Positions 4,271-54,430 of a stretch of 64,000 nt of DNA are shown here, one piece after another. Below the pieces are notes generated by a model. It worked only from the letters and a program-made list of their open reading frames with translations, was not told where the DNA came from and ran no database searches. The stretch spans positions 714,612,001 to 714,676,000 of the forward strand of contig NW_027362762.1 in NCBI RefSeq assembly GCF_046119375.1, written 5' to 3'. This DNA is from Phyllobates terribilis. Lineage: Eukaryota. Numbering within the stretch: the stretch's first letter is position 1; every line of letters begins with the position of its first letter. The position numbers were made by a program, and so were the translations under genes.

Positions 4271-4516
4271 CAGAGATCCATCCCCTTCCCTTCCCCCCTC
4301 CCCGCTGTACACTCAAACTGCGTATTAACATTGATTATCAGCATTACTGTGAAAAAATCCAGTTATGATTTTGATGCACGAACAGTTATCGAACATAATC
4401 TCGAACAGACGGATTTTTTTCAAATCGTTCGTGTTCGCCGAACGGCTCGAACACCGCTCAAAACAGCTCGAGTTTGAGATTAGCGAACAGTTCGAGTCGA
4501 ACACCGCACATCTCTA
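4271..4516 (-). mobile_element. hAT transposon terminus, same family as 30447-41240
   Basis: Near-identical to about 40995-41240. Ends in TIR-like gcacatctcta and has CGAAC-rich subterminal repeats. Confidence 0.9.
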
Positions 4517-22072: not shown

Positions 22073-23905
22073 TTAAAGAGTCAATATGTTTACAATTTTT
22101 ATTTCATAAATCAATGGTACAGATGAAAATAAGTAACTTTGTAATAACATGCTGTATCTTTCCAGAGAAATCTGCTTCCTTCTCCACCTGTGTTGATTTT
22201 TTTTCACTCTCAGTTCATGGGTTAAATCTTTATTCAGTGAAGTCAGATTTTCACATAACGTGATAGTGACTCGCCCCCTGGGCTGAGGGGCACCCGGAAC
22301 CGGGCCTCTGGGGGGTGTAGTATCCGTGGCGGTGACCCGGTCCCGTGGCTCAGGGTGGTCAGGCCAATGGCGGTATTTTGTGGGGGTTCTAGATTAATTG
22401 TCCGACTACGGCACCCGCGGATTGCGGTCAACGTGGACCGCCGCTGCAAGGTAGACCGCTGGGGCTGATGGTGTATGCAGCTGAGGTAGTGTGACTCCCC
22501 ACGGGAAGAGTGCAGCCCCAGGGCAGTAAGAGTGGATGATGGGAGTGATGGTGCGAGCGTCCCAGCACTAGTAGTGCTGGCGCGGCGATGAAGCACAGAG
22601 ACGTGGGATTGTAGTTCAAAGGCTTTACTCACAGTTCTTTATATTCCAAATCACTTCAGTACCGGTAGTGACTGCCCAAGCCGTGCTGCGTCCACCAGGA
22701 AAGGGGCTCGGTCAACCCCCAGGCAATTCCAGAGTGTGGCACAGGACTCCCTTCGATTCCTTTCTCTGGCCGTGCCCCACCAGTGACACTACTTTTGTCC
22801 AGCGGCCTCGGGCCTTCTCTTGGGATGTTGGATGTCCACTTCCCTGACCCTATGTGGTGTGCCTTTCTAGTAGGTGTAGTGAGGGGTCGCACCAAGATGT
22901 GATCACGACCACCGGTCCTTGGCTGAGGATTAGTCGCCTCCGCCAACTTGGGATCCGGTACCCTGTTCTGCCAACCCGTCACCCGCAATCTCCTGGGCCT
23001 TTGGGGTTCCTTCTGCCCTCGTGTCTCTGGCCCTCTCTTAGTGTTTCGTTCCTTTCTTCCTTTCCTTTCGGTTCCTCTCTGCTGGTCCTGTCCTCTCTGC
23101 TGTTTCTGGCCTTCTCTCCAGACCTGCCTCGTGGAGCTGGGCCCAGGCTGAGCCACAGCTCCCTGTCAGCCCTCTCTGGCTGAGCTCCTTCTCTCACCGA
23201 ACTGACTGAACTCACTCCTGTCCTAAGATGGTGCCCACCTTATATACCTCCCTCTCTGTGTATGAGCCCAGGTGACTTGCAACCAATGGGCTCCTACCTA
23301 TGCCCAGAGACCGTCCCCTCCTGCTCCTACATCACTGGGTTTTCCTCCCCCCTCCCCACACCAGCCAGGGACAGATGCTGTCGTGCCTGCACTTCTGTCT
23401 AGTGGGAGCACCGTTGAGCTGTCCCTCGGAAATGGGGTGTGTGTGATGCATGCAGCCTACCGAGCCCTGGTCCACCCTCCATCCTTACCCAGGAGTGGGA
23501 TATCACACCTCTGGCAGAGGTGCAATACCCCTGTAGCGGCCGAACCCTCGGGGCTCTACAATAGGAGATGACAGTTGGTGCTTTTAAAATTTTATGGTGA
23601 AGTGAGAGGGGAGTTGGAGGGAGGAACTAGAGGCAGACACAGACATTTTGCTGCAAGTTCCCCTGAAACAGCAGTTACGGTTCTCCATAGAACTTTATGA
23701 ACACAAACTATCATCTCCTATCTCAGTAATGGAAATGTCTGTGTTCACTGAAGACAGATTTTAGGCGTGAATTAAAAAATATTGAGAATGATCAGTCCAG
23801 GAGAAGAAATAAGTAGATTTCTCTAATAAAATATATTGCAAGGTTTCATATTTTAATGTGTTCTATTGATTTTTCAAAAAAATTAAAATGACAGTTACTT
23901 TTTAA
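22073..23905. mobile_element. TTAA-flanked MITE (T2/Kolobok-like), interrupted by a solo LTR
   Basis: TTAAAGAG... at 22073 and ...gacagttactttTTAA at 23905. Confidence 0.5.
22267..23560 (-). mobile_element. Solo LTR with 4-bp TSD
   Basis: TG...CA ends, ATAG on both sides, and homology to 31489-32699 and 63879-64000. Confidence 0.88.
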
Positions 23906-28719: not shown

Positions 28720-30952
28720 CACACATCATCTTCTCTCACCGTCTGTTAAGGCTATGTGCGCACGTTCAGGATTTGAATGCAGAAATTTCTGCAGCATTTC
28801 TGCATCTCTTGGCAGTAAAAACACTGCTCAAAAAATGCACGTTTTGCTGTGATTTTGATGCTTTTTTATGAGTTTTTGAATGTGTTTTTTTAATGCTCTT
28901 TTGGACATCAATGAATGCTTTTTGGAGCTTGTAAAGATCTGAGGTTGTGGGTTGTAAGTAATCACCTAGGAAGGTTAACGATGCAACAATATTTTATTGA
29001 TCACAGCCATGGTAATAAAGCAATTCCAGGTAAATGGCCAAAATACAGTTCTCTCAGTCCTCAAGTTCCCAATCTGGGTTCAGTAGTTCCACTGGCTTTG
29101 TATAAGGCCATACTCACTGTCTCCCAACTTTTGGTTGGCCCACAGATTTCGTATCTCCAGCCAGTATAGTCTGTAGCCACAGTCCATGATCCTCTAGACG
29201 GCAGATAAAACGATGAAAGCACAGGTATCCAGTAGCAGCAGTCCTTTTAAGAAAGTTTAAATCCAAACAACATAATCCATAAGGGTAACATCTTTATCCA
29301 TCCATCCTTCCAAGTCCATGGTCTCCATCCTCTTCCTTCAATCCTTCCACACCACTCTCTAAAACATGTCTCCACTTTCTTCCACTGGGATCAGTCCCCT
29401 CCCTGGTCAGAAGTGATCACACTCTCTCCCTTTAACATTCACTGTTCGCTAAAACAATGAAGAATATTCTAGAAGCCTTCATCTGAGACTGCATGTAAGA
29501 CCCCCTGTGGTGACGGCTCCACTGTGTCTTAATCTACACTCACCTAATGAGATTATTGGCTGTTGAAACAATGGACTCCTGAGATAAAGATGAGATTAGT
29601 GGAATGCTGGACATTTTACAAGTGAATCTTACATACTGACAAGTGAGCAGAACTATATAAAACATAACAAGTAAATCACTAATAAAACACAATAATGATA
29701 TTGACAAAATGGTGGTCCATTGCTGGAAAAGTATCATAGTCTTTAGTAAGTGGGCAGCTCCTCACAGCGCTAAATAAAGATATTTGAAAAAAGAAACGTA
29801 GGACATTGCTTCAACCCTTGGATTATTATCAGACCTGGGGTGAGTATATTCGTTAATTTAAATAATTAAAGAATGTGTCTGCTGTATTTCAAATAAACTG
29901 TTTACTCTGTGTGTGTGTGTTTATTTAACTCTTTACTTTACTTTAATTAGCTTTTAGTAATGAAAGTGTCTGATTGACACCTTGTCATCACCAAACAAAA
30001 AGGCTATGTGTCAGCTAATCCCATACACCCAAGCTCATTATCATTACCATTCAAGTCATTTCTGGGGCAGCTGAGAGTTGCTATTTTTAGCTTAGGAAGG
30101 TGCCATTACGCAAACATGTTCCCTGGCTATTAAAAGCAGCTCACAGCTGTTTCATTAGCCTGTATGTCCTTACGAACAGCAACAAGCAGCGCTTTGAAAG
30201 CAGCATATTTTCGCTGCGTCCAAAATCCTGTATTCTAATGCTGCACTTTTGTTGTCAATACACGTGGATCCACCACATATAATGACATTTCGATCGGTCG
30301 AAATCTGCCGCGGAGACTAGCGTGTCTGCTACAGAAATTGACATGCTGTGGGTGAGTTTGGGTACGTGGCCACAATCAGGAGCTGCTGCAGGTTTGAAGA
30401 TGCGTGTTTATGCAGTGTCAAACCTGCAGCATCCAGATGTTACAGCTAGTGTTGAGCCACCCCCGTAGTGTTCGAGTTCGGTTCGGTTCGTCGAACACCC
30501 GTGTGTTCGCCGAACTGTTCGTCGAACTGTTCGTCGAACACCTTCGAACACCGTTAAAACCAATGGCAGGCAAACAAAAACACATAGAAACACATACAAA
30601 ACACCTTCAAAGGTGTCCAAAAGCTGACAAACTGCTCAGAAGACACAACTAACACATGGAAAAGTGACAAGTACATATAGTCATGCGAAAAGAAAAGAGG
30701 TGGAGGAGTAAAAGAAGGGGGAGACACAGATATAGGCATGTCATGCCCTTCTAAAATCCAAAAAGTGAGAAGCCGAGACGGCCAGTCCGCTCCTGCCCGT
30801 GCCACCTCCGTGTCGCCGGGTTTGTGCCAGAGCCGCGGTGAACCCTGACGGCCAGCCCCCCTCTCCCAATACTGGTGCCTGTCCGCTGGTGGGTCGAGAG
30901 AGCCCCCCTGTGGTGGAGGCAGCTCTAAGCTTTTTAATTTAAATTGTCCCTC

Positions 30953-31217
30953 TAATTTGAATGAATACACTTTAAATCCATTTACAAGGATCTATTGGAG
31001 GGCAAGTCTCATGCCAGCAGCCGCGTAATTCCAGCTCCAGTAGCGTCCACTAAAGCTGCTGCAGTTAAAAAGCTTTTATAAGGATCGAGCTCGGCTGTCC
31101 ACCGCAAGGCATCCTAGTGCCAGTCCCAGCCCCTATGCCTTGGGGTGCCTCCTGATGCTCTTCACTGAGTATCCCGTGGTCCCGAAGCATTTCCTTTGAA
31201 AAAATTAAGTGTCCAAA
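30953..31217 (+). pseudogene. 18S rRNA-derived fragment inside the hAT element
   Basis: ggatctattggagggcaagtc..gccagcagccgcgtaattccagctcc..gctgcagttaaaaagct..ggatcgagct..cccgaagcatttcctttgaaaaaatta matches the 18S helix-18 (530 loop) and V4 region, with many substitutions. Confidence 0.9.
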
Positions 31218-31328
31218 CTACAGGTGGTGTAGCTTGCTTAACAGCCGGGATAATCCGCTGACTAGCAGACACTGCTACTAGGCACAAAGTATTTCCTGGG
31301 CTAGATGCAGTTAAAAATTTGTAAGTAG

Positions 31329-33150
31329 ATACTCTCGTTGGATGCTGAGAAAGCATTCCATAGAGTCTCCTGGCACGCCATATATGATTCTCTTAAAAAG
31401 CTTGGGGTAGGGGTCTAGGGGACCATTTTATAGCCAAAATCACGGCCCTGTATCACAATACGTCACCTAGGCTGAAGATAAATGGAACTGTAGCACCGAG
31501 GGCTCGGTTGCTACAGACGTATTGCACCTCACCCAGAGGTGTGATATCTCACTCTCAGATAAGGATGGAGTGTGGATCAGGACCCGACACCTGCATGCAT
31601 TACACCACATTGCCGTGGGGCAGGGCGACCAATATGCCCCTGAGATGGGCACGACAGTCCCTGTCCCTGGCTGGAGTGGGGGGAGGGAACACTGAGGAAG
31701 GGGAACCCTGCAGTGCAGGAGCAGGGAGGAAGCAGTTCCTGGGTGCATTGAGAAGGGAGTATAAAAGGTGGGCACCATCTTAGTTCAGTGCAGAGAAGTC
31801 TGAGCAGAAGTGGCAGGGAGCAGGGGCTCTGCATGAGCTCTGCTCCGGAGGCGGGCCTAGTAACAGAGGCCCAGGCCTGCAAGAGGGAGAAGGAAGGAAG
31901 AGGAGCGGAGAAGGCTCCAGGAACGAGGAATGAAGGGATCCCAGGGGTGCGGACGGGCGAGTCGCCACCGCACGCCCGAATCCACCTGCGTGGAGGGGTC
32001 AGGCCAAAGGGGGAGACCGGTCCCCGAACTAGTGGAGGCAGGAAACGACCCTCAGCTAGAAACCGGAGGCTCTGACATTTTATGTGGTGCAGCCCCTTGC
32101 TCCACCCGCTAGGAAGGCACCACATAGGGTCAGGGAAACTGGCGCCAAGTTTACCAAGAGGAGGCCCGAGGCAGCCGGACAGAAGTGTTGGTAAGAAAGG
32201 CCAGACAAAGGACACACAAAGGGGGTCCTGTGAAGCGCTCCAAAGTTATCTGGGAGTTGTCTGAGCCCCTCACCTGGTGAGCACAGTACGACGTGGGCAG
32301 CCGTTACCTGCAGACGTGGTCTGAATAATAAGAACTGTGAGTAAAGGCCCTGAACTGCATCACTGACTCCGTGTCGTTACTGCTGCTGCCCTGCACCATC
32401 ACCCCCATCCTCCGCATACACTGCCCTGAGGCTATACTCCTCCCGTGGGGAGTTATGCTACGCTCTGCTGCACCCACAACACCAGCCTTAGCGGTCTGCC
32501 CTGTAGCGGCGGTTCACTCTGACCGCAATCCACGGGTGGCGTAGTCGGACATTTAAACATCAAAACCACATAAATAGTTCCGCCACTGGTTTGACCGCCC
32601 TGAGCCACGGAACCGGATCGCCGCCACGAAGACTACAACCACCAGCATCCACCAAAAAGGGTCCGGCTCCGGGTGTCCCAAGGCCCAGGGGGTGCGTCAG
32701 AACATTTTCATCACCTTTCACAATCACCAATGGGACAAGGCAGGGATGTCCTCTGTCCCCTCTCTTATACATCCTAGTGACGGAGCACCTGCTCTCATCA
32801 ATTCGCCATAACCCCAATATTAGGTGGATTGAGGTGGGAGGCACCGAGTACAAGTGCTCTCTATTTGCTGATGATGTCCTAGTATATATCACTCAATCAC
32901 ATATATCCATCCCTGCTGTTATGGCTGAAATAGATCACTTTGTTACATGGTAAAATTTTAAAATCAATGCAGCGAAGTCTGAGGCCCTCGATGTCTCCCT
33001 CCCCAAATCCATATAGGATTCCATCCAGTCCAACTTTCCCTTTGCCTGGCCCTCACAGGGTATCAAATACTTAGGAATTCCTATTCATAGAGACCTCTCC
33101 CATCTATGTTATCTTAATTTTGGGCCCTTTATTGAACAATTCCATACAGA
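31329..33150 (+). pseudogene. L1-type reverse transcriptase fragment (split by the solo LTR)
   Basis: ILSLDAEKAFHRVSW ... KINGT|FSSPFTITNGTRQGCPLSPLLY ... LFADDVL ... IKYLGI. Confidence 0.88.
31489..32699 (+). mobile_element. Solo LTR with 4-bp TSD
   Basis: TGTAGC...GCGTCA flanked by GAAC on both sides. Removing it restores the L1 RT frame. Confidence 0.92.
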
Positions 33151-33221
33151 CCACGGTTGGCAAGTTAGAACTGTAAGATTCACTACGTGAACCACTGGTG
33201 TTTTGTGGAAAAGCACATGTA

Positions 33222-34590
33222 CACCGCGTTCCAAATTATTATGCAAAAAGTGTTTAGGAGTGATAAGGGAAGAATTTGTTTGTTTGTCAGTTAAACTCAT
33301 TGATGGTGATGTGTGTCAGGGCTCTTTATATCACTGTAAGCAATTGCAGACACCTGTGCTAATTAGTTTGGCAGGTGTGTCCAATGAAAGGCAAGACTAC
33401 TTAAGAAGGCTCTCTCACATTATTAAGCAGCCTACATTTTCTGCCAAAATGGGAAAGAAAAAGGATGTGTCGGCTGCTGAGAAGCAACAAATTGTGGAGT
33501 GTTTAGGTCAAGGCATGACTACAATCCACATTGTGCGATGATCAGGATGAAGTGTCTTGGCAATCAAGAAGTATGTAGCTGATTCACAGTACACACGTGT
33601 GCGTGCTGATAAGGGCAAATTGAGGACTCTTTCCTACAGGCAATTACGTCAGGTTGAAAGAGCAGCGGCAAAAAAGCCTTGTCATAGCAGCAGACAAGTT
33701 TTTGAAGCTGCTTGTGCCTCCAACGTCCCCCGAACAACAAGATGCAGGGTCCTTCAGAGGTTTGCAGCTGTGCATACGCCATCCTGTCGACCTCCTCTAT
33801 CCACTTCATACAAGCAGAAACGGCTCCAGTGGGCCAAACATTACATGAAGACTGATTTCAAAACTGTTTTGTTCACGGATGAGTGCCGTGCAGCGCTCGA
33901 TGGTCCAGATGAATGGAGTGGAGGATGGCTGGTTGATGGACACCCCACGCAAACACGGCTACAGCGCCAACAAGGAGGAGGTGGAGTAATGTTTTGGGCT
34001 GGAATCATGGGGAGAGAGATTGTCGGCCCCTTTAGGATCCCTGAAGGCGCTAAAGATGAACTCCATAATGTATGTGGATTTTCTCAAACAGCACTTCCTG
34101 CCATGGTTCAAGAAGAAGAACCGTGTATTTCACAGCAAGATCATTTTTCTGCATGATAATGCACCATCTCATGCTGCACATAAAACATCTGCATCTCTGG
34201 CTGATATGGGCATAAAAGGGGACAAACTTATGGTGTGACCCCCATGCTCCCCTGACCTCTACCCCATTCAGAACCTTTGGAGCATCATTAAAAGGAGTGT
34301 CTATGATGGCGGGAGGCAGTTCACATCTAAGCAACAGCTCTGGGAGGGTATTCTGTCCTCATGCAAAACAATTGAAGCAGAAACCATCCAAAACCTGACA
34401 AATTCAATGGACGAGAGAGTTCAGAAGCTCCTTTCGAACAAGGGGTCCTATGTGAAAATGTAACATCACCTAGAATAAAGTTTTGAGTTGAAAACTGTTT
34501 GATTTCAGTTTCTAATAACCTGCTAATGCTTATAATTTCAAAAATGACCATTTTTTTGGTCTTTATTAAAATGAAAAGGTTGATCGAAAA
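33222..34590 (+). mobile_element. Tc1 transposon, defective and 3'-truncated (transposase about 33449-34463)
   Basis: TA|CACCGCGTTCCAAATTATTATGCAAA left end. Motifs LFTDE, HDNAPSH, SPDLYPIQNLW (E to Q). Frameshifts and stops. Confidence 0.88.
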
Positions 34591-34920
34591 GTTTGGGGGA
34601 TCTAAGAGTGTGGCAACCCAGTAGTCATGATTACTTCGAATTCTGACAATATGAGGGTCATGCTGCAGGTAGTGCAGCAAGAAGGCACTTATGTGTCTTG
34701 CGCATCTCGGAGCCCCAAAATTATTTTCCGGGCTAGATGCAGCTAAAAATTATTTTTAATTTTAAATCTGGTGAAGCTTATTATAGATGGCCTAATAGGA
34801 TCAGTGCTGCACACTGCTACAAAGCCCAAATTATTTTCCAGTCAAGATACAGATAAACATGATTAGTAATTTGAAAGCTTAAAACGGTTGGTAGGGTGAT
34901 TTTAACCAATCATCAAGCTT

Positions 34921-37900
34921 TTACTCTCCCCAGGATGACACAGGGGTAGAAAAGTCGTTTCGGATCCATGATTTGTTCATCTTTATGAACGTGAGTCTGT
35001 CTACATTATCAGTGGAGAGCCGCGTGCGCTTATCTGTCAGCACACCACCAGCAGCGCTGAACACACGTTCAGACAGAACGCTGGCTGCGGGGCATGACAA
35101 GATCTCCAAGGCGTAAGTGGCTAGCTCCGGCCATTTATCCAGATTGGAAGCCCAAAAAGAGCAAGGGTCCAGTGACACAGTCGTGGCTTCAATGTTTACT
35201 TGGAGATACTCCTGTACCATCGTCTCTAGGCGTTGACTATGTGTCAGACTTCTTGTCTCCTGTGGCCTTGCAAAGGATGGGCTAAAAAAGTGGTGAAATG
35301 ATTCCGCAAAATTGATGTTACCAGCAGATACTGTGGTTCTGTTACGGTTTGAGTGCTGAACACTTGACGGTCCCACGGTTGGCAAGTTGGAACTGTGAGA
35401 TTCACTACGTGCACCACTGGTATTTTGTGGAAAAGCACATGTAAGATTCTGCAACAGTCTCTGCTGATACTCCTGCATGCGTGCATCCCTTTCTATGGCA
35501 GGAATAATTTCTGCAAATTTACTTTTGTACCGGGGATCTAACAGTGTGGCAACCCAGTAGTCAGGATTATTTCTAATTCTCACAATTCGAGGGTCATGTT
35601 GCAGGTAGTGCAGCAAGAAGGCACTCATGTGTGTTGCGCATCCAGGAGCACCAAGTCCCTGTTGTGTTGGTGGCGAGGTAACAATCATGCTTCCTTCCTC
35701 TGTCCTCTCCCCCCAACCTCGCACAACAGAAATGTGATCAAGGTCTCCCTCATCTGATGAGTCTTCCATCAGTTCGTCCTCCACTTCTTCCTGGGCTCCT
35801 GCACCTTCCTCACTAGTTTGGCTGCTACCATGCGCCCTGGTAAAATCATCTCCCCCACCCTCACATGCCTGCCGCCTTGGTGCTGCCGACCGTCTGGACC
35901 TTGCAGATGTTAGCCCTTCCGCATACAACTCCTCCTCCTCTACTTCCTCCACCTCCTCTTGTGCCACCACCTGACTCCGAATTCTGTTTAACATGTGCTC
36001 CAGCATGTAAATCACCGGAATAGTCATGCTGATAATGGCATCGTCAGCACTAAACATCTTCGTCGCCATTTCAAAACTGTGCAGAAGGGTGCATAGGTCC
36101 CTGATCTGAGACCACTCCTCCAGCGTGATTTGCCCCACCTCTGAATCTCGTTGGCCCAGGCTATACGTCAGAACGTATTGCACCAGGGCTTGTCGGTGCT
36201 GCCACAGTCGCTGCAACATGTGCAGAGTTGAATTCCACCGGGTAGGCACATCGCATTTTAGCTGGTGAAGTGGCAGGCCCAACGACTTCTGTAGAGATGT
36301 AAGTCGCTGAGCTGCGGGATGCGAACGGCGGAAGTGAGCACACAGCGACCGTGCCCTCTGCAGAAGGCCATCTAGTCTGGGATAGTGGGCTAAAAATTGC
36401 TGGACAACCAGGTTCAACACGTGAGCCATACAAGGCACGTGTGTGACATTGCCCCGGCGAAGGGCCGCACCCAGGTTTGCAGCATTGTCGCACACGGCCT
36501 TCCCTGGTTTCAGGTCCAGTGGAGACAACCATTCATGAAATTGGTTCTCCAGAGCTGACCACAACTCCTCAGCTGTGTGACTCACATTTCCCAGACATTT
36601 CAATGTAAAAACCGCCTGATGACGTTGAGCCCTACTGCCAGCATAGTAAGGAGGTGTGCAGGATCCCTTCTGCGCAATTAGAAAGCTTGTGGCATGACCA
36701 GACAGGCTTTGGGTGCAGGTGGAAGACCGAGAGGAGGTTGAGGAGGCAGAAGCAGTGGAGGAACTTTGACATAAAGAGGATTGACGCACAACTCGTGGGG
36801 ACGGCAAGACTTGGACAGCAGCCCCTTGTCCTGCTGTCACCATAGTTACCCAGTGCCCAGTCAGCGACATGTAACGCCCCTGTCCATGCCTACTCGTCCA
36901 AGTGTCTGTGGTGAAATGCACCCTGTCACACACAGAGTTTCTCAAAGAAGCGGTGATGTTGTGTACGACATGCTGGTGGAGCGCAGGCACACCTTTCTTT
37001 GAGAAGTAGTGCCGACTGGGCATCTGGTACTGGGGCACTGCGACGGACATAAGGTCTCGAAAATCCTCTGTGTCCACCAGGCGGAAAGGCAGCATTTCTG
37101 TAGCCAAGAGCTTGCAGATGGTGAAATTCAACCTCTTAGCTTTCTCATGGCTAGGAGGAAATGGTCTTTTACTTGTCCACATCTGAGGGACCGAGGGCTG
37201 GCTATTGTGCTTAGACGGGGTTGATAAGGGTGTCCCCGGCAAACTGCCGGTCTGTGAGGAAGATGCAGGCGGACATGTTAGGTTGCCTTGATCCAAAGGT
37301 GGTGCTATCGATGCCGGACAGCGCTCAAGACCAGCTGGTGTTACCACCTCCAAAGAAAATGATGACCTGCCAATCACGCTGGCTGTTGCGGGTAAAGAGG
37401 TGGCAGGTCTGCGCCCCAAAACAGGTGTGACTGCTGTCCCCCCAGTCACAGAGGATGAAGAGGCCGCGGATGCACAAGATATGGCAGACGGTGGTTGGCC
37501 CGGCCGGCTAGGCCGCATTGTAGCACACTGAGCTTCCCACTGCAACTTATGCTTCAAGTCCATGTGCCGGTTCATGCATGAAGTACTCAAACTATGTATT
37601 TTTTGGCCTCTACTTAGCTTTTGCTGACAAATGTTACAGATAACACGAGTTGGGTCATCTTTATCGATCTGAAAAAATGCCCAGGCTATGCAAGGCTTAG
37701 CACCCATGCGACCTAAAGAGCCACCACGACTTGTGGTGAGAGGCAGAGTTGTGTTTGAGGATGCAGTTGTTGACGTGCTTCCAGTACTACGTCTCTGTCC
37801 AGGAAGGCGCAACCTGACCTCATCGTCACTAGCATCTTCCTCCACCTCCTCTGCTGACCTCATCTCTTGGCTGACTGTGGGTTGACAGTAAGTGGGATCT

Positions 37901-38601
37901 CCGACCTCATCATCATCACCCTGTGCGTTTTCACACCCGTCGTCCTCAGAGCCAACCTGTTCCTGCCCTGACAAAAAACTAAAGTTGTCGCTCCAATCAG
38001 GTATTTGAGTCTTATCATCGTCTTCCTCATTGTCTCCACCAACAGGAGTTACAGTTTGGGAATGAGGGTCTACATTATGGTCAGAACCTTCTGCGTCTGG
38101 TCCTGGATCCGACTCATAATGATTCTGGGCATCAGTGCAGATCATTTCCTCGTCTGGATTCACAGAAGCGCTGGAGTCGACCTCTGATTCCCAGGCTATA
38201 GTATGAGTAAACAGCTCTGCAGACTCAACCATCTGTTCTACCTCATACTCAGACGGGCAGCTGGAGATTTGGGAGCTGTGAGGAAGCAAGTGCGATTTGG
38301 GTGACACCTTTGAGGACTGGAGTATTTGTGATGTTGAAGTTGATGTGGAGGAGAGCCCACTTAAAGGAGCACTTGATATCCGTTGAAGCACCTGCTGTTT
38401 TTGTGCCTCATCTGGAATTTGTAGCGATTGGCGTGGCCGTAAGAAAGGGATCTTATCACATTGTCCGCTAAAAGAAGTAGACATTTTAGTTTGGCTGGAA
38501 GATGGTCTTTCTTCTGCACCTACCCCACGGACACAACCTTTTTTCCCCTTCCCAACACGCCTATTCCCCTTTCCACCAGCAGCAGGCCTTTTTCCACTCA
38601 T
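34921..38601 (-). CDS. hAT transposase, 1226 aa, BED zinc finger + DDE + dimerisation domain (ZBED-like)
   Basis: AWAFF...CNICQQKL...CMNRHMDLKH (BED finger). VHFTTDTWTS, CDVPTRWNST and SVLSERVFS give D/D/E. Uninterrupted ORF inside TIRs. Confidence 0.96.
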   Translation of the reverse strand: MSGKRPAAGGKGNRRVGKGKKGCVRGVGAEERPSSSQTKMSTSFSGQCDKIPFLRPRQSLQIPDEAQKQQVLQRISSAPLSGLSSTSTSTSQILQSSKVSPKSHLLPHSSQISSCPSEYEVEQMVESAELFTHTIAWESEVDSSASVNPDEEMICTDAQNHYESDPGPDAEGSDHNVDPHSQTVTPVGGDNEEDDDKTQIPDWSDNFSFLSGQEQVGSEDDGCENAQGDDDEVGDPTYCQPTVSQEMRSAEEVEEDASDDEVRLRLPGQRRSTGSTSTTASSNTTLPLTTSRGGSLGRMGAKPCIAWAFFQIDKDDPTRVICNICQQKLSRGQKIHSLSTSCMNRHMDLKHKLQWEAQCATMRPSRPGQPPSAISCASAASSSSVTGGTAVTPVLGRRPATSLPATASVIGRSSFSLEVVTPAGLERCPASIAPPLDQGNLTCPPASSSQTGSLPGTPLSTPSKHNSQPSVPQMWTSKRPFPPSHEKAKRLNFTICKLLATEMLPFRLVDTEDFRDLMSVAVPQYQMPSRHYFSKKGVPALHQHVVHNITASLRNSVCDRVHFTTDTWTSRHGQGRYMSLTGHWVTMVTAGQGAAVQVLPSPRVVRQSSLCQSSSTASASSTSSRSSTCTQSLSGHATSFLIAQKGSCTPPYYAGSRAQRHQAVFTLKCLGNVSHTAEELWSALENQFHEWLSPLDLKPGKAVCDNAANLGAALRRGNVTHVPCMAHVLNLVVQQFLAHYPRLDGLLQRARSLCAHFRRSHPAAQRLTSLQKSLGLPLHQLKCDVPTRWNSTLHMLQRLWQHRQALVQYVLTYSLGQRDSEVGQITLEEWSQIRDLCTLLHSFEMATKMFSADDAIISMTIPVIYMLEHMLNRIRSQVVAQEEVEEVEEEELYAEGLTSARSRRSAAPRRQACEGGGDDFTRAHGSSQTSEEGAGAQEEVEDELMEDSSDEGDLDHISVVRGWGERTEEGSMIVTSPPTQQGLGAPGCATHMSAFLLHYLQHDPRIVRIRNNPDYWVATLLDPRYKSKFAEIIPAIERDARMQEYQQRLLQNLTCAFPQNTSGARSESHSSNLPTVGPSSVQHSNRNRTTVSAGNINFAESFHHFFSPSFARPQETRSLTHSQRLETMVQEYLQVNIEATTVSLDPCSFWASNLDKWPELATYALEILSCPAASVLSERVFSAAGGVLTDKRTRLSTDNVDRLTFIKMNKSWIRNDFSTPVSSWGE

Positions 38602-38720
38602 TTTGGTGGTTAACTAATTCACAACTCTGGAGTTGTTTGCACAAAAAAACAATGGATGGTAACCGAGCAGAGCTGAGTGGCCAAACTGTGGTATTAGGCC
38701 AAAACTATTGGCTGGGTTAG

Positions 38721-40323
38721 ATGCAGAAAAAAATTATTTTTAATTTGCAACCTGATGGAGGTCAGTATAGATGGACTAATAGACCAAGTCCCACACACCG
38801 CTAGAAGCCCAAATATTTTTTCAGAGCTAGATGCAGAAAATTTTTTTATTCAATTTGCAACCTGATGGAGGTCAGTATAGATGGACTAATAGACCAAGTC
38901 CCACACACTGCTAGAAGCCCAAATATTTTTTCAGAGCTAGATGCAGAAAAAAATTATTTTTAATTTGCAACCTGATGGAGGTCAGTATAGATGGACTAAT
39001 AGACCAAGTCCCACACACCGCTTGAAGCCCAAATATTTTTTCAGAGCTAGATGCAGAAAAAAATTATATTCAATTTGCAACCTGCTGGAGGTCAGTATAG
39101 AAGGACTAATAGAACAAGTCCCACACACTGCTAGAAGCCCAAATATTTTTTCAGAGCTAAATGAAGAAAAAAATTATTTTTAATTTGCAACCTGATGGAG
39201 GTCAGTATAGATGGACTAATAGACCAAGTCCCACACACTGCTAGAAGCCCAAATATTTTTTCAGAGCTAGATGCAGAAAAAAATTATTTTTAATTTGCAA
39301 CCTGATGGAGGTCAGTATAGATGGACTAATAGAACAAGTCCCACACGCTGCTAGAAGCCCAAATATTTTTTCAGAGATAAATTAAGAAAAAAATTATTTT
39401 TAATTTGCAACCTGATGGAGGTCAGTATAGATGGACTAATAGACCAAGTCCCACACACTGCTAGAAGCCCAAATATTTTTTCAGAGCTAGATGCAGAAAA
39501 AAATTATTTTTAATTTGCAACCTGATGGAGGTCAGTATAGATGGACTAATAGAACAAGTCCCACACGCTGCTAGAAGCCCAAATATTTTTTCAGAGCTAA
39601 ATGAAGAAAAAAATTATTTTTAATTTGCAACCTGATGGAGGTCAGTATAGATGGACTAATAGACCAAGTCCCACACACTGCTAGAAGCCCAAATATTTTT
39701 TCAGAGCTAGATGCAGAAAAAAATTATTTTTAATTTGCAACCTGATGGAGGTCAGTATAGATGGACTAATAGACCAAGTCCCACACACCGCTAGAAGCCC
39801 AAATATTTTTTCAGAGCTAGATGCAGAAATTTTTTTTATTCAATTTGCAACCTGATGGAGGTCAGTATAGATGGACTAATAGATCAAGTCCCACACACTG
39901 CTAGAAGCCCAAATATTTTTTCAGAGCTAGATGCAGAAAAAAATTATTTTTAATTTGCAACCTGATGGAGGTCAGTATAGATGGACTAATAGAACAAGTC
40001 CCACACACTGCTAGAAGCCCAAATATTTTTTCAGAGCTAGATGCAGAAAAAAATTATTTTTAATTTGCAACCTGATGGAGGTCAGTATAGATGGACTAAT
40101 AGAACAAGTCCCACACGCTGCTAGAAGCCCAAATATTTTTTCAGAGATAAATGAAGAAAAAAATTATTTTTAATTTGCAACCTGATGGAGGTCAGTATAG
40201 ATGGACTAATAGACCAAGTCCCACACACTGCTAGAAGCCCAAATATTTTTTCAGAGCTAGATGCAGAAAAAAATTATTTTTAATTTGCAACCTGATGGAG
40301 GTCAGTATAGATGGACTAATAGA
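38721..40323. repeat. 110-bp satellite array (about 14.6 copies) in the hAT 5' region
   Basis: atg(c/a)agaaaa recurs every 110 bp from 38721 to 40261. Confidence 0.97.
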
Positions 40324-42779
40324 ATGATGCTATGCCCAAAAGATTTTACTTCACTAGGTGCAGTAAAAAAATTGGTATTCTATACACAGGTGGTATATCT
40401 TGCAACACAGATAGGCTACTCCACTGACTAACACACTCTGCAATAGGCCAAAAAGGATTAGCTTTGCTAGATTCAGCCAAATGCTGTGAAAAAAACTTGC
40501 ACAGCACTGGCACAGACCTGCCTGGCAAAAACTGATAGGAACTGATGTAACCTAGTCCTGAAAAGGACTCCAATTACAATTAGTCTTTACTCCCACAATC
40601 TATCTATTTAAGAGCACAGACCTGCTTGATAAAAGTCGTAGGAAATGCTGTAACCTAGTCCTTAAAAGGACTGCAATCACAACTGTTCCCTACTCCCAAG
40701 CTATCTGTAGATTTGTGCGAAAATTGGCTTGAAATTAACAAGGTATAGCGCACACAGCAACAGCGGTGCCGTCTAACACGCAGCTGCAGCAGTGAGAAAA
40801 TGGTGGCGACGGGGAAAATGGCTTGGTCTTATAGGGCAAGGACATGTGACATATACTGCCAATCACACATGCCCTTGCTTGTGTGAAAAAAAGCACTTCG
40901 CTCCGTGTGTGCGCTGCTGATAGGCTGACAGATTGCACCTCCCCACTGCAAATGCGGGAAAGAGAAAAAAAAATGGAGATCTTCATTGTTCCTGCAGAGA
41001 TCCATCCCCTGCCCCTCCCCCCGCCCCGCTGTACACTCAAACTGCGTATTAACATTAATTTTCATCATTACTAAGAAAAAATCCAGTTATGATTTTGGTG
41101 CACGAACAGTTATCGAACATAACCTCGAACAGCCGAATTTTTCTCAAATTGTTCGTGTTCGCCGACCGGCTCGAACACCGCCCAAAACAGCTCGAATTTG
41201 AGATTGGCGAACAGTTCGAGTAGAACAACGCTCATCTCTAGTTACAGCATAGTGGAAGGGATTTCTAGAAAACCTATGTCCACTATGCGTGCATCTGAGG
41301 CTGCGGATCACCCGCGGACTCTGACATGCGGCGCATCATTCAGGACCGCTGCATGACGAATTCTCTTGTGGAGTCGCTAGTCTCCGTAACAGAAATTTGA
41401 CCACTAGAATGTATTGAATGCCGTAAATATGCATGATTAAGAGAACACATGTGGATTTACCTGCGTTCAATAGAACACAGCGTTTTGGAAGCAGCAAAAA
41501 TATGCTGCATCCAAAGAGCAGCTATGTCCGGATCTTGGGCACAAGATTTAAAAAATGGCATGGGCTCCCACATCATTTTTATAACCAGCAGAGGGAAAGC
41601 CGACCTCAGGGGGCTGATATTAGTAGCCAGGGAAGGGGCCATTAGCCAAAAATGTTCCCTGGCTATTAATAACAGCTCACAGCTGTTTGCTTAGCCTTTA
41701 TTGGTTAGATTACAGGGGGACCCCAGAAAAAAATTGACGTAGAGTCCCCCTATAAAATCTAACCAGAAAAGGCTAAACAGAGAGCTGTGGGCTGATATTA
41801 ATAGCCAGGGAAGGGGCCATGGACCCTGGCCCCCTCTGTGGCTAATAATATCACCCCTCAGCAGTCCCAGAAATGGCGCATCCATAGGATGCACCAAATC
41901 TGACACTTAACCTCTGCTCTTCCCATTGCTGTGTAGCGGTGGCAAGTGGGGTAATGGGGATGGGGTTAGTAATAAGATAAGACGCCCTCATTATTAACCC
42001 CATAGTTAAGTTTTTGACGCTTTTTCAATAAAGGCACTGCCAGAATAAAGTATTTTATTGAAATAAAATGACACACAATTTTAATAATTTTTTTATTGTT
42101 CTCTCAATCCTCGATGCCCTAGTCTCCTGAAAAAAAAAACAAAAATAAAAAACAACCATAGCACTGGTGCCGTAAACTGAGGTCCCAGACCTCATCAACT
42201 TATCTCCAGCTGATGAACTCGCATGACCTCAGCCGGCAGCAGTGATGTACACTGCTTGAAGCGAGCGCGATCCTGTCAGTGTACCGCCGGCCGGTGGGAT
42301 GATCTCGTCGCCGGGGGACATCAGGAGGATGGCGGGACACCGGGGGACACCGGACAGGTGAGGATAAAAGGTGTTTTTTATTTTAAACAGATTTTTACTT
42401 TTTTTTTTTTCACCGCTCACAGCCCCGACTCGGCTGAGGAGCCTACTTCTAACCTCAGCCGCACTGTTCTCGCTGTTATCAGCGGTTGGATGCTGGGAGA
42501 CATAGTCTTCTTCCCCGGCCCGGGTACCATTCTTTGAGCGTTTTTGCGTTGCGTAAATGCTGCAAAGAATGGACATGCTGCGTAATTTAACGCAATGACA
42601 ATCCTGAGCGGAAATTTTCCGCATCATGTACACAGCACATCAGGATTGCCAATGCATTTGATGGCAGACTGATTACCTAGCGTTTTTGTTGCATTTCCGA
42701 GTGCAAAAAATGCTGTGAAAATGCATCAAAAATGCATCAAAAATTCTCAGCGTGCACTTAACCTAAGCGTGGATGGGCT

Positions 42780-48984: not shown

Positions 48985-51900
48985 CTGAGAGGCACCTGGG
49001 GTTCAATGGGCTCACCACACATCTATATAAGTTCCCTGGGGGGTCTAGTTTCCAAAATGGGGTCACTTGTGGGGGAGCTCCTATGTTTAGACACACAGGG
49101 GCTCTCGAAACGCAACATGGTGTCCGCTAACAAATTGGAACCATGTCGCGTTTGGAGAGATCCTGTGTGTCTAAACATTGGAGCTCCCCCACAAGTGACC
49201 CCATTTTGGAAACTAGACCCCCAAAGGCACCTATCTAGATGCATAGTGAGCACTTGGAACCCCCAGGTGCTTCACAAATTGATCCATAAAAATGAAAAAG
49301 TGGTTTTTTTTCACTTATTCAATTTTACGAATTAATTTGTGAAGCACCTGGGGGTTCCAAGTGATCATTATGCATCTAGATAGGTGCCTTGGGGGGTCTA
49401 GTTTCCAAAATGGGGTCACTTGTGGGGGAGCTCCAATGTTTGGGCACACAGGGACTCTTCAAATGCAACATGGTATCCGCTAACAAATTGTCGGCTCAAA
49501 TTGTTAGCGGATACCATGTTGCATTTGAAGAGTCCCTGTGTGCCCAAACATTGGAGCTCCCCCACAAGTGACACCATTTTGGAAACTAGACCCCCCAAGG
49601 CACCTATCTAGATGCATAATGAGCTCTTGGAACCCCCAGGTGCTTCACAAATTGATTCGTAATTTTGAATAAGTGAAAAAAAAACACTTTTTCATTCTTA
49701 TGGATCAATTTGTGAAGCACCTGGGGGTTCCAAGTGCTCACTATGCATCTCAATAGGTGCCTTGGGGGGTCTAGTTTCCAAAATGGGGTCACTTGTGGGG
49801 GAGCTCCAATATTTGGGCACACAGTGGCTCTCCAAATGCAACATGGTGTCCGCTAACAAATTTAACGGAAAATCGACTCAAATTGTTAGCGACATCATGT
49901 TGCGTTTGGAGAGCCGCTGTGTGCCCAAACATTGGAGCTCCCCCACAAGTGACCCCATTTTGGAAACTAGACCCCACAAGGCACCTATCTAGATGCATAG
50001 TGAGCACTTGGAACCCACAGGTGCTTCACAAATTGATTCGTAACAATGAAAAAGTGAAAAAAAAAACACTTTTTCATTTTTAGGAATCAATTTGTGAAGC
50101 ACCTGGGGGTTCCAAGTACTCACTATGCATCTAGATAGGTGCCTTGGGGGGTCTAGTTTCCAAAATTGGGTCACTTGTGGGGGAGCTCCAATGTTTGGGC
50201 ACACAGCGGCTCTCCAAACGCAACATGGTGTCGCTAACAATTTGAGACGATTTTGCCTAAAATTTGTTAGCGGACACCATGTTGCATTTAGAGAGCCGCT
50301 GTGTGCCCAAATATTGGAGCTCCCCCACAAGTGACCCCATTTTGGAAACTAGACCACCCAAGGCACCTATCTAGATGCATAGTGAGCACTTGGAACCCTC
50401 AGGTGCTTCACAAATTGATTCATAAAAATGAAAAAGTTTTTTTTTTTTCACTTTTTCATTGTTACGAATCAATTTGTGAAGCACCTGGGGGTTCCAAGTG
50501 CTCACTATGCATCTAGATAGGTGCGGTGGGCGGTCTAGTTTCCAAAATGGGGTCACTTGTGGGGGAGCTCCAATGTTTGGGCACACAGGGACTCTCTTAA
50601 TGCAACATGGTGTCCTCTAACAAATTTAACGGAAAATCGGCTCAAATTGTTAGCGACACCATGTTGCGTTTGGAGAGCCGCTGTGTGCCCAAACATTAGA
50701 GCTCCCCCACAAGTGACCCCATTTTGGAAACTAGACCCCCCAAGGCACCTATCTAGATGCATAGTGAGCACTTGGAACCCTCAGGTGCTTCACAAATTGA
50801 TTCATAAAAATGAAAAAGTGTTTTTTTTTCACTTTTTCATTGTTACGAATCAATTTGTGAAGCACCTGGGGGTTCCAAGTGCTCACTATGCATCTAGATA
50901 GGTGCCTTGGGGGGTCTAGTTTCCAAAATGGGGTCACTTGTGGGGGAGCTCCAATGTTTGGGCACACAGGGACTCTTCAAATGCAACATGGTATCCGCTA
51001 ACAAATTGTCGGCTCAAATTGTTAGCGGATACCATGTTGCATTTGAAGAGTCCCTGTGTGCCCAAACATTGGAGCTCCCCCACAAGTGACACCATTTTGG
51101 AAACTAGACCCCCCAAGGCACCTATCTAGATGCATAATGAGCTCTTGGAACCCCCAGGTGCTTCACAAATTGATTCGTAATTTTGAATAAGTGAAAAAAA
51201 AACACTTTTTCATTCTTATGGATCAATTTGTGAAGCACCTGGGGGTTCCAAGTGCTCACTATGCATCTCAATAGGTGCCTTGGGGGGTCTAGTTTCCAAA
51301 ATGGGGTCACTTGTGGGGGAGCTCCAATATTTGGGCACACAGCGGCTCTCCAAATGCAACATGGTGTCCGCTAACAAATTTAACGGAAAATCGACTCAAA
51401 TTGTTAGCGACATCATGTTGCGTTTGGAGAGCCGCTGTGTGCCCAAACATTGGAGCTCCCCCACAAGTGACCCCATTTTGGAAACTAGACCCCACAAGGC
51501 ACCTATCTAGATGCATAGTGAGCACTTGGAACCCACAGGTGCTTCACAAATTGATTCGTAACAATGAAAAAGTGAAAAAAAAAACACTTTTTCACTTTTA
51601 GGAATCAATTTGTGAAGCACCTGGGGGTTCCAAGTACTCACTATGCATCTAGATAGGTGCCTTGGGTGGTCTAGTTTCCAAAATTGGGTCACTTGTGGGG
51701 GAGCTCCAATGTTTGGGCACACAGCGGCTCTCCAAACGCAACATGGTGTCGCTAACAATTTGAGACGATTTTGCCTAAAATTTGTTAGCGGACACCATGT
51801 TGCATTTAGAGAGCCGCTGTGTGCCCAAATATTGGAGCTCCCCCACAAGTGACCCCATTTTGGAAACTAGACCACCCAAGGCACCTATCTAGATGCATAG

Positions 51901-54430
51901 TGAGCACTTGGAACCCTCAGGTGCTTCACAAATTGATTCATAAAAATGAAAAAGTTTTTTTTTTTTCACTTTTTCATTGTTACGAATCAATTTGTGAAGC
52001 ACCTGGGGGTTCCAAGTGCTCACTATGCATCTAGATAGGTGCCGTGGGCGGTCTAGTTTCCAAAATGGGGTCACTTGTGGGGGAGCTCCAATGTTTGGGC
52101 ACACAGGGACTCTCTTAATGCAACATGGTGTCCTCTAACAAATTTAACGGAAAATCGGCTCAAATTGTTAGCGACACCATATTGCGTTTGGAGAGCCGCT
52201 GTGTGCCCAAACATTAGAGCTCCCCCACAAGTGACCCCATTTTGGAAACTAGACCCCCCAAGGCACCTATCTAGATGCATTGTGAGCACTTGGAACCCTC
52301 AGGTGCTTCACAAATTGATTCATAAAAATGAAAAAGTGTTTTTTTTTCACTTTTTCATTGTTACGAATCAATTTGTGAAGCACCTGGGGGTTCCAAGTGC
52401 TCACTATGCATCCAGATAGGTGCCTTGGGGGGTCTAGTTTCCAAAATGGGGTCACTTGTGGGGGAGCTTCAATGTTTGGGCACACAGCGGCTCTCCAAAT
52501 GCAACATGGTGTCGCTAACAATTTGAGCCAATTTTGCGTTAAATTTGTTAGCGGACACCATGTTGCATTTAGAGAGCCGTTGTGTGCCCAAATATTGGAG
52601 CTCCCCCACAAGTGACCCAATTTTTTAAACTAGACCACCCAAGGCACCTATCTAGATGCATAGTGAGCACTTGGAACCCTCAGGTGCTTCACAAATTGAT
52701 TCATAAAAATGAAAAAGTGTTTTTTTTTTCACTTTTTCATTGTTACGAATCAATTTGTGAAGCACCTGTGGGTTCCAAGTGCTCACTATGCATCTAGATT
52801 GGTGCCTTGGGGGGTCTAGTTTCCAAAATGGGGTCACTTGTGGGGGAGCTCCAATGTTTGGGCACACAGGGACTCTCTAAATGCAACATGGTGTCCTCTA
52901 ACAAATTTAACGGAAAATCAGCTCAAATTGTTAGCGACACCATGTTGCGTTTGGAGAGCCGCTGTGTGCCCAAACATTGGGTCTCCCCCACAAGTGACCC
53001 CATTTTGGAAACTAGACCCCCAAAAGCACCTATCTAGGTGCATTGTGAGCACTTGGAACCCTCAGGTGCTTCACAAATTGATTCATAAAAATGAAAAAGT
53101 GTTGGTTTTTTTCACTTTTTCATTGTTACGAATCAATTTGTGAAGCACCTGGGGGTTCCAAGTGCTCACTATGCATCTAGATAGGTGCCTTGGGGGGTCT
53201 AGTTTCCAAAATGGGGTCACTTGTGGGGGAGCTCCAATGTTTGGGCACACAGCGGCTCTCCAAACGCAACATGGTGTCGCTAACAATTTGAGCCAATTTT
53301 GCGTTAAATTTGTTAGCGGACACCATGTTGCATTTAGAGAGCCGCTGTGTGCCCAAATATTGGAGCTCCCCCACAAGTGACCCCATTTTGGAAACTAGAC
53401 CACCCAAGGCACCTATCTAGATGCATAGTGAGCACTTGGATCCCTCAGGTGCTTCACAAATTGATTCATAAAAATGAAAAAGTGTTTTTTTTTTCACTTT
53501 TTCATTGTTACGAATCAATTTGTGAAGCACCTGGGGGTTCCAAGTGCTCACTATGCATCTAGATACGTGCCTTGGGGGGTTTAGTTTCCAAAATGGGGTC
53601 ACTTGTGGGGAGCTCCAATGTTTGGGCACACAGGGACTCTCTAAATGCAACATGGTGTCCTCTAACAAATTTAACGGAAAATCAGCTCAAATTGTTAGCG
53701 ACACCATGTTGCATTTAGAGAGCCGCTGTGTGCCCAAATATTGGAGCTCCCCCACAAGTGACCACATTTTGGAAACTAGACCACCCAAGGCACCTATCTA
53801 GATGCATAGTGAGCACTTGGATCCCTCAGGTGCTTCACAAATTGATTCATAAAAATGAAAAAGTGTTTTTTTTTTCACTTTTTCATTGTTACGAATCAAT
53901 TTGTGAAGCACCTGGGGGTTCCAAGTGCTCACTATGCATCTAGATAGGTGCCTTGGGGGGTCTAGTTTCCAAAATGGGGTCACTTGTGGGGGAGCTCCAA
54001 TGTTTGGGCACACAGCGGCTCTCCAAACGCAACATGGTGTCGCTAACAATTTGAGCCAATTTTGCGTTAAATTTGTTAGCGGACACCATGTTGCATTTAG
54101 AGAGCCGCTGTGTGCCCAAATATTGGAGCTCCCCCACAAGTGACCCCATTTTGGAAACTAGACTACCCAAGGCACCTATCTAGATGCATAGTGAGCACTT
54201 GGAACCCTCAGGTGCTTCACAAATTGATTCATAAAAATGAAAAAGTGTTTTTTTTTTCACTTTTTCATTGTTACGAATCAATTTGTGAAGCACCTGGGGG
54301 TTCCAAGTGCTCACTATGCATCTATAAAGGTGCCTTGGGGGGTCTAGTTTCCAAAATGGGGTCACTTGTGGGGGAGCTCCAAAGTTTGGGCACACATGGG
54401 CTCTCCAAACACAACATGGCGTCCGCTAAT
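48985..54430. repeat. Palindromic satellite: about 14.5 units of 373-383 bp, each arm+reverse-complement arm; 1518-bp higher-order duplication
   Basis: gtgaagcacc at 49339, 49712, 50094, 50476, 50857, 51230, 51612, 51994, 52375, 52757, 53140, 53522, 53903 and 54285. Identical ORF sets are offset by 1518. Confidence 0.96.

What the first reader, a model, noticed from the sequence alone, without database searches (positions are those of the whole stretch)
30447..41240. 10.8-kb potentially autonomous hAT transposon carrying mixed cargo
Seen: matching TIRs, a perfect 8-bp TSD, flanks that join into one continuous repeat, and an uninterrupted 1226-aa transposase with BED finger and D/D/E. Its 3' arm holds rDNA, L1, solo-LTR and Tc1 pieces, and its 5' arm holds a satellite. 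Known: typical autonomous hATs are a few kb. Inference: if the cargo predates the last jump, this is a cargo-mobilising vertebrate hAT and a candidate large-capacity vector.
Basis: partly seen in the sequence, partly recalled or inferred. Interest (0 to 1): 0.7.

Follow-up and report, generated by a model that had tools for sequence, protein, structure and literature searches.

The report
Giant junk-carrying hAT transposon family
This 10.8-kb jumping gene, in what is likely a frog, has over 50,000 near-identical copies (an estimated 5% of the genome) that share the same broken scraps of ribosomal DNA and of three other jumping genes, which likely got in one at a time and ride along as dead weight; a lizard family of the same build is already known, at far lower copy number.

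Summary
Confirmed. 30447-41240 is a whole hAT: 11-bp TIRs (9/11 match), 8-bp TSD, flanks that rejoin in 11 of 11 host-repeat copies, and a 1226-aa BED/DDE transposase. The cargo is not private. Exact short motifs occur 50,234-57,917 times in the genome (5' end, transposase, a cargo junction). 16 of 20 close copies carry the whole 3' arm; 12 of 14 with both ends have their own TSD (10 perfect). Of 40 position-sampled copies, 34 hold all cargo pieces and none joins the ORF to a cargo-free end. Copies differ by about 1%; estimated 4.7-6.2% of the genome. Intermediates show stepwise build-up: older rDNA-only copies, then L1+Tc1 without the LTR (3,956 empty sites; also in two other organisms), then the solo Gypsy-type LTR. 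All cargo is broken. Current activity is not shown (closest pair 0.22% apart). The kind is known: Anolis hobo_AC (9-15 kb, 290 ORFs) carries TE scraps and was already proposed as a large-cargo vector. New here: the scale, the ordered history and the rDNA scrap, where a retrotransposon sits in two copies. The scan found this family before on other DNA of this genome.

The parts
30170..30446 (+). left flank: host repeat into which the element inserted (TSD GTTACAGC at 30439-30446)
30447..30768 (-). 3' end of the hAT: 11-bp TIR (30447-30457) and subterminal region rich in GTTCG/CGAAC (12 in the first 300 bp, 3 in 3000 bp of the interior)
30769..30930 (+). decayed rDNA 5' ETS piece, 83% to own rDNA
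30950..31217 (+). decayed 18S rRNA piece, 86% to own 18S, fused to the ETS piece with about 970 bp missing; site near 31029 holds a non-LTR retrotransposon in two other copies
31218..31321 (.). hAT-own repeat unit, 74% like the 5' arm (40386-40476); also in older subfamilies
31322..31488 (+). LINE RT fragment, first part (L1-type by recalled motifs), with stops
31489..32699 (+). solo LTR (TG..CA, 4-bp GAAC duplication); relatives at 69-75% lie beside RT-RNaseH-integrase pol frames, Gypsy order
32700..33150 (+). LINE RT fragment, second part, with stops
33151..33221 (+). duplicate of transposase DNA 35373-35443 (94%), ending in the TA where Tc1 begins
33222..34585 (+). Tc1-type transposon, frame broken, right end lost; 96% to a 1,587-nt contig in run X18
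34596..34879 (+). duplicate of transposase DNA 35532-35654 (89%) followed by satellite-like units (76% to the 5' array)
34921..38601 (-). hAT transposase, 1226 aa, BED finger 306-352, D566/D705/E1178, dimerisation domain 1133-1207
38718..40323 (.). 110-bp tandem array, 14.6 units here, 6-31 in 13 whole copies; it explains the length range 9.8-12.6 kb
40324..41240 (-). 5' arm with subterminal repeats and 11-bp TIR (41230-41240)
41241..41600 (+). right TSD (41241-41248) and continuation of the host repeat

Best explanation
This is one of more than 50,000 young copies of a whole 10-12 kb hAT transposon whose 3' arm holds the same dead fragments of rDNA, a LINE, a solo LTR and a Tc1, which likely entered one after another and are likely carried as neutral passengers because the transposase would need only the two ends. 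Shown: shared cargo, separate TSDs, intermediates that lack the later pieces. Inferred from hAT biology (Hermes, Tol2): BED fingers bind the subterminal repeats, the element is cut out and pasted with an 8-bp nTnnnnAn duplication, and copy number rises by jumping during replication and gap repair of the donor site. Inferred order: (1) ETS-18S scrap; (2) LINE piece and a Tc1 that entered a duplicated bit of the transposase gene; (3) an LTR retrotransposon inserted in the LINE piece and shrank to a solo LTR; (4) that version amplified, roughly 1-2 million years ago at a borrowed Xenopus rate.
For: Counts of exact motifs in G000: transposase 3' end 52,526, LINE|ORF-piece junction 57,917, 5' end 50,234; reversed-pattern controls 0. 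The 2,974-bp arm matches over its full length at all 40 scored places. 20 copies fetched whole: 16 with the full arm, 14 with both ends, 10 perfect, 2 one-mismatch and 2 unmatched TSDs, none equal to the window's. 40 position-sampled copies: 30 cover every piece over 90%, 4 more hold all pieces with small deletions, 2 lack the LTR, 4 are cut or interrupted but keep Tc1 DNA beside the ORF. Intermediates: older copies with rDNA but no LINE/LTR/Tc1 in 6 of 6 arms tested, e.g. L125 9,063 bp and L126 10,774 bp with perfect TSDs; empty LINE site in L082, L088, 3,956 exact hits and in runs X17, X18 of two other organisms. Tree of 52 rows: 40 young rows form one clade (100/98), pre-LTR and older rows lie outside. 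18S scrap is 90% to true 18S in older copies, 89% pre-LTR, 85-86% in young copies. Cargo diverges among copies as fast as or faster than the ORF (0.9-2.4% against 0.8%). dN/dS 0.49-0.62 between lineages, 0.84 among young copies.
Against: No identical or nearly identical pair among 51 copies (closest 0.22%), so present-day activity is not shown. The sample comes from the first 25 Mb of one contig and from a 30-mer absent from all 10 older copies, so it says nothing on how common older, lighter forms are. Neutrality of the cargo is not proved: the LTR-bearing form outnumbers the pre-LTR form more than tenfold, which chance or an advantage could both give. The order LINE versus Tc1 is not resolved; no copy with only one of them was seen. 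Unplaced contigs may double-count some copies.
Confidence: 0.82

Rival explanations
1. The cargo helps the element: the solo LTR (or the rDNA scrap) would raise transposase expression or weaken silencing, and this drove the burst of the LTR-bearing form.
For: LTR-bearing copies form one clade that far outnumbers the pre-LTR form; almost no sampled copy has lost the arm, although DNA transposons usually shrink by internal deletion (own knowledge; PMC3014272 passages).
Against: Cargo is no more conserved than the ORF; the LTR lies 2.2 kb downstream of the stop codon and on the opposite strand; sister lineages spread with other cargo (tyrosine-recombinase retroelement piece) and 3.8-5.7 kb elements with only 200 and 148 bp of the ends also moved, 7 of 8 with perfect TSDs.
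Confidence: 0.12
2. The arm was gained mostly as one captured block of already decayed host DNA (the model Novick et al. gave for hobo_AC), with only the LTR added later.
For: The LINE piece is old-looking (several stops) and cut at both ends; rDNA is already 10% off in the oldest copies; no LINE-only or Tc1-only intermediate was found.
Against: The Tc1 sits at a TA inside a duplicate of the element's own ORF and is 96% like a longer contig of run X18; hAT-own DNA separates the rDNA from the LINE piece; rDNA occurs without LINE/Tc1. Template-switch capture remains likely for the rDNA and LINE pieces singly.
Confidence: 0.15
3. Cargo is private to this copy, or copies arose by segmental duplication or assembly error.
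For: None found.
Against: Separate TSDs and flanks on many contigs; balanced strand counts and 0 control hits; contigs of public runs hold the same arm.
Confidence: 0.01

Closest known systems
hobo_AC of Anolis carolinensis (Novick et al., PMC3014272; read: passages and section 8 part 1 of 2)
   Same: Autonomous vertebrate hAT of 9-15 kb swollen by fragments of other transposons; 11-bp TAG-type TIR; TSD with T at 2 and A at 7; about 1% divergence; lineages differ in cargo; recombination between elements; authors proposed it as a large-cargo vector.
   Different: 25 full-length copies and 290 ORFs, outnumbered by non-autonomous copies, against 50,000 or more mostly long copies here; different TIR letters and cargo; no rDNA piece named in the passages read; cargo explained there as captured blocks, here at least the LTR and Tc1 are nested insertions. 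Sequences not compared.
Multicopy Pack-TIRs, e.g. Pack-hAT-N8_XT of Xenopus tropicalis (Tan et al., PMC8277862; passages)
   Same: hAT ends carry host sequence to new sites with distinct TSDs, in a frog.
   Different: Three copies, 291 bp of a gene's UTR in a hAT-N (non-autonomous by name); here only about 430 bp of rDNA is host sequence, the carrier codes a transposase, and copies run to tens of thousands.
Anuran BED-hAT transposases annotated 'ZBED4/6-like'; Xenopus hAT-10 (PMC9250109, passages); Hermes
   Same: BED finger, DDE core, CxxH, dimerisation domain; long low-complexity inserts.
   Different: Best identity 46-49% among 41 hits from 7,981 scored candidates; no protein of this family itself was returned.
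Tx1-type retrotransposons that target other transposons (Tx1-Mar; PMC4494074, abstract only)
   Same: A non-LTR element sits at one base of a DNA transposon in separate copies (L161, L082).
   Different: The target here is an rDNA-derived scrap; only two cases seen by me.

Membership tests
hAT superfamily | 8-bp target-site duplication | tested here: met
   window; 10 perfect and 2 one-mismatch of 14 whole copies
hAT superfamily | short terminal inverted repeats plus subterminal repeats | tested here: met
   11 bp, 9/11 match; GTTCG/CGAAC 12 and 8 per 300 bp at the ends, 3 per 3000 bp inside
hAT superfamily | transposase with BED finger, D-D-E, CxxH, W and C-terminal dimerisation domain | tested here: met
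hAT superfamily | enzyme excises and integrates today (autonomy) | not testable with these tools
   open frames in 23 of 30 close and 14 of 40 sampled copies; closest pair 0.22% apart
Ac/hobo branch (not Buster/Charlie) | TSD with T at 2 and A at 7, no central TA | tested here: met
   T in 45 of 51, A in 44 of 51 target flanks; pattern as hobo_AC in PMC3014272 Table 1
Ac/hobo branch (not Buster/Charlie) | placement in a tree with reference Ac and Buster transposases | not tested
   only Hermes and anuran ZBED4/6-like hits; no reference set was fetched
hobo_AC family | 9-15 kb with fragments of other TEs shared between copies | tested here: met
hobo_AC family | same TIR sequence and about 1% divergence from its consensus | tested here: not met
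   TIRs differ from Table 1; works like hobo_AC, is not that family
Pack-TIR | internal host, non-TE sequence with a parental copy elsewhere | tested here: met
   only for the ETS and 18S pieces; other cargo is TE-derived
Pack-TIR | captured gene piece transcribed or functional | tested here: inconclusive
   contigs of runs only guessed to be RNA; pieces are decayed

The most novel reading that the evidence does not exclude
One 11-kb cut-and-paste family added about half a gigabase to a vertebrate genome within 1-2 million years while staying full length, and in doing so built a mobile habitat: its rDNA scrap is a specific landing site for a retrotransposon, and the one-base loss seen in most young copies closed that site and helped the dominant lineage win.
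Probability: 0.25. Interest if true: 0.72.

Novelty: new member of a known kind. Interest (0 to 1): 0.48.

Why it matters
It shows that a single long, transposase-coding DNA transposon family can supply an estimated 5% of a 10.6-Gb genome in a short burst, where genome growth in frogs is mostly credited to retrotransposons (PMC11152451, PMC12822217, passages). About 2 kb in every 11 would be scored by repeat annotation as LTR or LINE and 1.4 kb as Tc1, and tens of thousands of 18S-like scraps could mislead rDNA mapping. The graded series of intermediates makes cargo cost or benefit directly testable. As a vector it is a modest lead only.

Tried and rejected
Expression: no RNA holder listed. 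RNA runs X21, X22 gave 1 and 0 reads and come from another organism's sample, so no test. X15, X16 cover 30 of 30 bins but are only guessed to be RNA and are contigs. Runs X10, X12 (organisms C, D) hold the element at about 99% and low depth; with so many copies in the host, cross-contamination explains this as well as presence in another species, so I did not use it for range or horizontal transfer. Insertion polymorphism: not tested; the flank is itself a repeat, so an empty site in reads would prove nothing. A first empty-site search among the loci then held found 0 spanning hits; the aimed search did. Rfam miRNA hits at 41691-41866 are below gathering score and lie in the host repeat's hairpin. 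Pfam gave nothing for four frames of the older cargo in L127; L068 frames gave Phage_integrase and GDSL. No insertion in the rDNA piece among 58 of 70 loci that hold it whole. L174 breaks 7 bases before the retrotransposon site with an unrelated insert and is not counted. Paper searches found no description of this family; Repbase and Dfam could not be searched and no supplements were opened, so a library entry may exist. No fold was run: the family is clear from sequence.
Full report
Observation. The element runs from 30447 to 41240, between two copies of GTTACAGC, with 11-bp TIRs that match at 9 positions. The minus strand holds a 1226-aa frame from 38601 to 34921 with zf-BED and Dimer_Tnp_hAT; D566, D705, C724xxH727, W789 and E1178 are in place and the core aligns to Hermes (E 3e-19). 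All named homologues among 41 hits are anuran proteins called ZBED4/6-like or unnamed, at best 46-49% identical, so the host is likely a frog. Eleven of eleven other copies of the flanking repeat hold the two flanks joined over one target copy: the insertion site is real.

Cargo. From the 3' end inward: a 5' ETS piece (83%) fused to an 18S piece (86%), measured against the genome's own rDNA units, which are 99.8-99.9% alike; a short hAT-own repeat; an RT fragment (RVT_1; L1-type by motifs I recall) split by a 1,211-bp TG..CA LTR with a 4-bp duplication, whose 69-75% relatives lie beside pol frames in RT-RNaseH-integrase order; then a frame-broken Tc1 that begins at a TA inside a duplicate of the element's own ORF and lacks its right end. 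Foreign DNA adds up to about 3.6 kb. The 110-bp array in the 5' arm is the element's own: related units follow the stop codon, and 6-31 units account for the length range of 13 whole copies, whose remainder is 9,125-9,146 bp in 12 and 9,294 bp in one.

Is the cargo shared? Yes. The ORF search scored 40 of 1,540 candidates, all full length at 99-100%; the arm search scored 40 of 1,694, all full length. I fetched the first 20 non-self places whole: 16 hold the complete arm, 14 gave both exact ends, and of these 10 have perfect TSDs, 2 differ at one base and 2 do not match; none equals the window's. To avoid picking close kin I took every second of the first 79 places of the transposase 30-mer (contig C1, 0-25 Mb): 30 of 40 cover every piece over 90%, 4 more hold all pieces with small deletions, 2 lack the LTR, and 4 are cut or interrupted but keep Tc1 DNA next to the ORF.

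Scale. Exact hits in the 10.57-Gb genome: 52,526 for the transposase 3' end, 57,917 for a cargo junction, 50,234 for the 5' end, 81,781 for the 3' end, 15,568 for a junction variant of the window's own subgroup (exact in 4 of 40 sampled copies); controls 0. The surplus of 3' ends comes largely from other users of that end: of 29 such ends fetched, 15 belong to a non-coding 3.8-5.7 kb family, 8 to an end-swapped composite, 3 are deletion forms, 2 are cut by insertions and 1 is diverged. 48 of 55 listed 5' ends have a 3' end within 25 kb, median 11.2 kb, 32 within 9-14 kb, which gives 4.7-6.2% of the genome. This is an estimate from one region; some pairings may be spurious and unplaced contigs may repeat copies. 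Copies differ by 1.0% on average, the closest of 51 by 0.22%. At the Xenopus rate of 3.0-3.2e-9 quoted in PMC9250109 (passage) that is about 1.6 million years for the mean and 0.35 for the closest pair; the rate is borrowed. 23 of 30 close loci (the window's included) and 14 of 40 sampled ones keep a long open frame, 10 of those 14 with all six motifs tested. dN/dS is 0.84 among 35 young copies and 0.49-0.62 between lineages, as expected when only the parents of bursts were under selection.

History. An older subfamily, 91-93% in the ORF, has whole copies of 9.1, 10.8, 11.5 and 14.1 kb, three with perfect TSDs and one with 7 of 8. Six of six arms tested hold ETS and 18S but no LINE, LTR or Tc1; several hold a tyrosine-recombinase retroelement piece instead ('DIRS-like' is my recalled label). 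L082 and L088 have the LINE site empty, a form with 3,956 exact hits that contigs of two other organisms also show (joint 31484-32700 in X17 and X18). In a tree of 52 rows (1,780 columns of transposase DNA; L084, L095, L109 dropped as too short, 16 of the 20 close copies left out) the 40 young rows form one clade at 100/98, with pre-LTR and older rows outside; the root is only a midpoint. The 18S scrap drifts from 90% to 89% to 85-86% along this series. The order rDNA, then LINE and Tc1, then LTR follows.

Mechanism. Shown: the whole unit moved many times with its cargo. Inferred from Hermes and Tol2 (PMC10368747, passages): the enzyme needs only the TIRs and 150-200 bp of subterminal repeats, so the space between stop codon and 3' end tolerates anything. 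In line with this, elements that share only 200 and 148 bp of the ends also have TSDs (7 perfect of 8). Net gain of copies by jumping during replication and gap repair is established knowledge for cut-and-paste elements, not tested here. Cargo varies among copies at 0.9-2.4% against 0.8% for the ORF (28 copies), so nothing marks it as useful, though the dominance of the LTR-bearing clade leaves an advantage open.

A lead from earlier notes, partly tested. Notes of this scan said that the 18S scrap is a landing site. Of 7 over-long arms fetched, one (L161, pre-LTR) has a 7.9-kb non-LTR element with ZCCHC3-type ORF1, endonuclease and RT inserted at 31029-31032 with a 4-bp duplication; L082, also pre-LTR, has a similar A-rich tail at the same base, of which only 12 letters were fetched. 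They may be two insertions or one carried by the hAT. The site is one base short in 28 of 40 sampled and 17 of 20 close copies, in 0 of 10 older ones, and in the window. Two cases cannot show targeting or shielding; I did not test insertion into true rDNA.

Comparison. hobo_AC of Anolis (PMC3014272; passages and part 1 of section 8) is the same kind: 9-15 kb, TE scraps inside, 11-bp TAG-type TIRs, same TSD pattern, and a stated proposal as a large-cargo vector; but 25 whole copies and 290 ORFs. Multicopy Pack-TIRs were four cases (1.4%) in animal reference genomes, three in Xenopus (PMC8277862, passages). hAT abundance is already tied to anuran genome size (PMC12822217, PMC11152451, passages). 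PMC10946416 (passages) reviews TE-rDNA links; the passages shown held no such hAT case. PMC11188598 and PMC3239208 were seen only as search listings. Eight searches found no account of this family; repeat libraries could not be searched.

Verdict. A real, cargo-moving hAT; a new member of a known kind, remarkable for scale and for a readable history. Present activity and vector value are untested. Interest 0.48.

Noticed in passing
L167, L168, L171, L175-L182, L188-L190, L193; also beside L020: Non-coding 3.8-5.7 kb family sharing only about 200 bp of the 3' end and 148 bp of the 5' end, with long internal inverted repeats and its own TSDs.
   Followed up: partly
L166, L173, L183, L185, L186, L191, L192, L194: End-swapped composite: the 3' end with the ETS piece is joined to the start of an inverted transposase; four share an LTR at ORF position 36091.
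   Followed up: partly
L161:825-8740; L082:1-12: 7.9-kb non-LTR retrotransposon in the 18S scrap at window-equivalent 31029; same 3' junction base in L082.
   Followed up: partly
L115-L126, L127: Older subfamily carrying a tyrosine-recombinase retroelement piece with a GDSL-like frame instead of LINE/LTR/Tc1.
   Followed up: partly
L187: Deletion between the 71-bp direct repeats (33151-33221 and 35373-35443) removes Tc1 and the ORF's end; run X16 shows the same joint.
   Followed up: no
L008, L011, L012, L019, L096, L111: Copies inserted into or beside other copies of the same family.
   Followed up: no
L084, L095, L109, L172: Relatives (69-75%) of the cargo LTR have inserted afresh into other hAT copies, showing the entry route.
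   Followed up: partly
window 4271-4516: 91% match to the element's 5' end: a relative's terminus.
   Followed up: no
window 22267-23555: 71% relative of the cargo LTR on the minus strand.
   Followed up: no
window 49140-54429: 382-bp tandem array, 13.9 units.
   Followed up: no
runs X9, X10, X12, X14: Four other organism labels hold about 0.8 of the element's words; two laid runs are about 99% identical at low depth; contamination or transfer not told apart.
   Followed up: partly
window 38517 region of the ORF (residue 28): The window's subgroup lacks 7 codons near the N-terminus that most copies have (1226 against 1233 aa).
   Followed up: no
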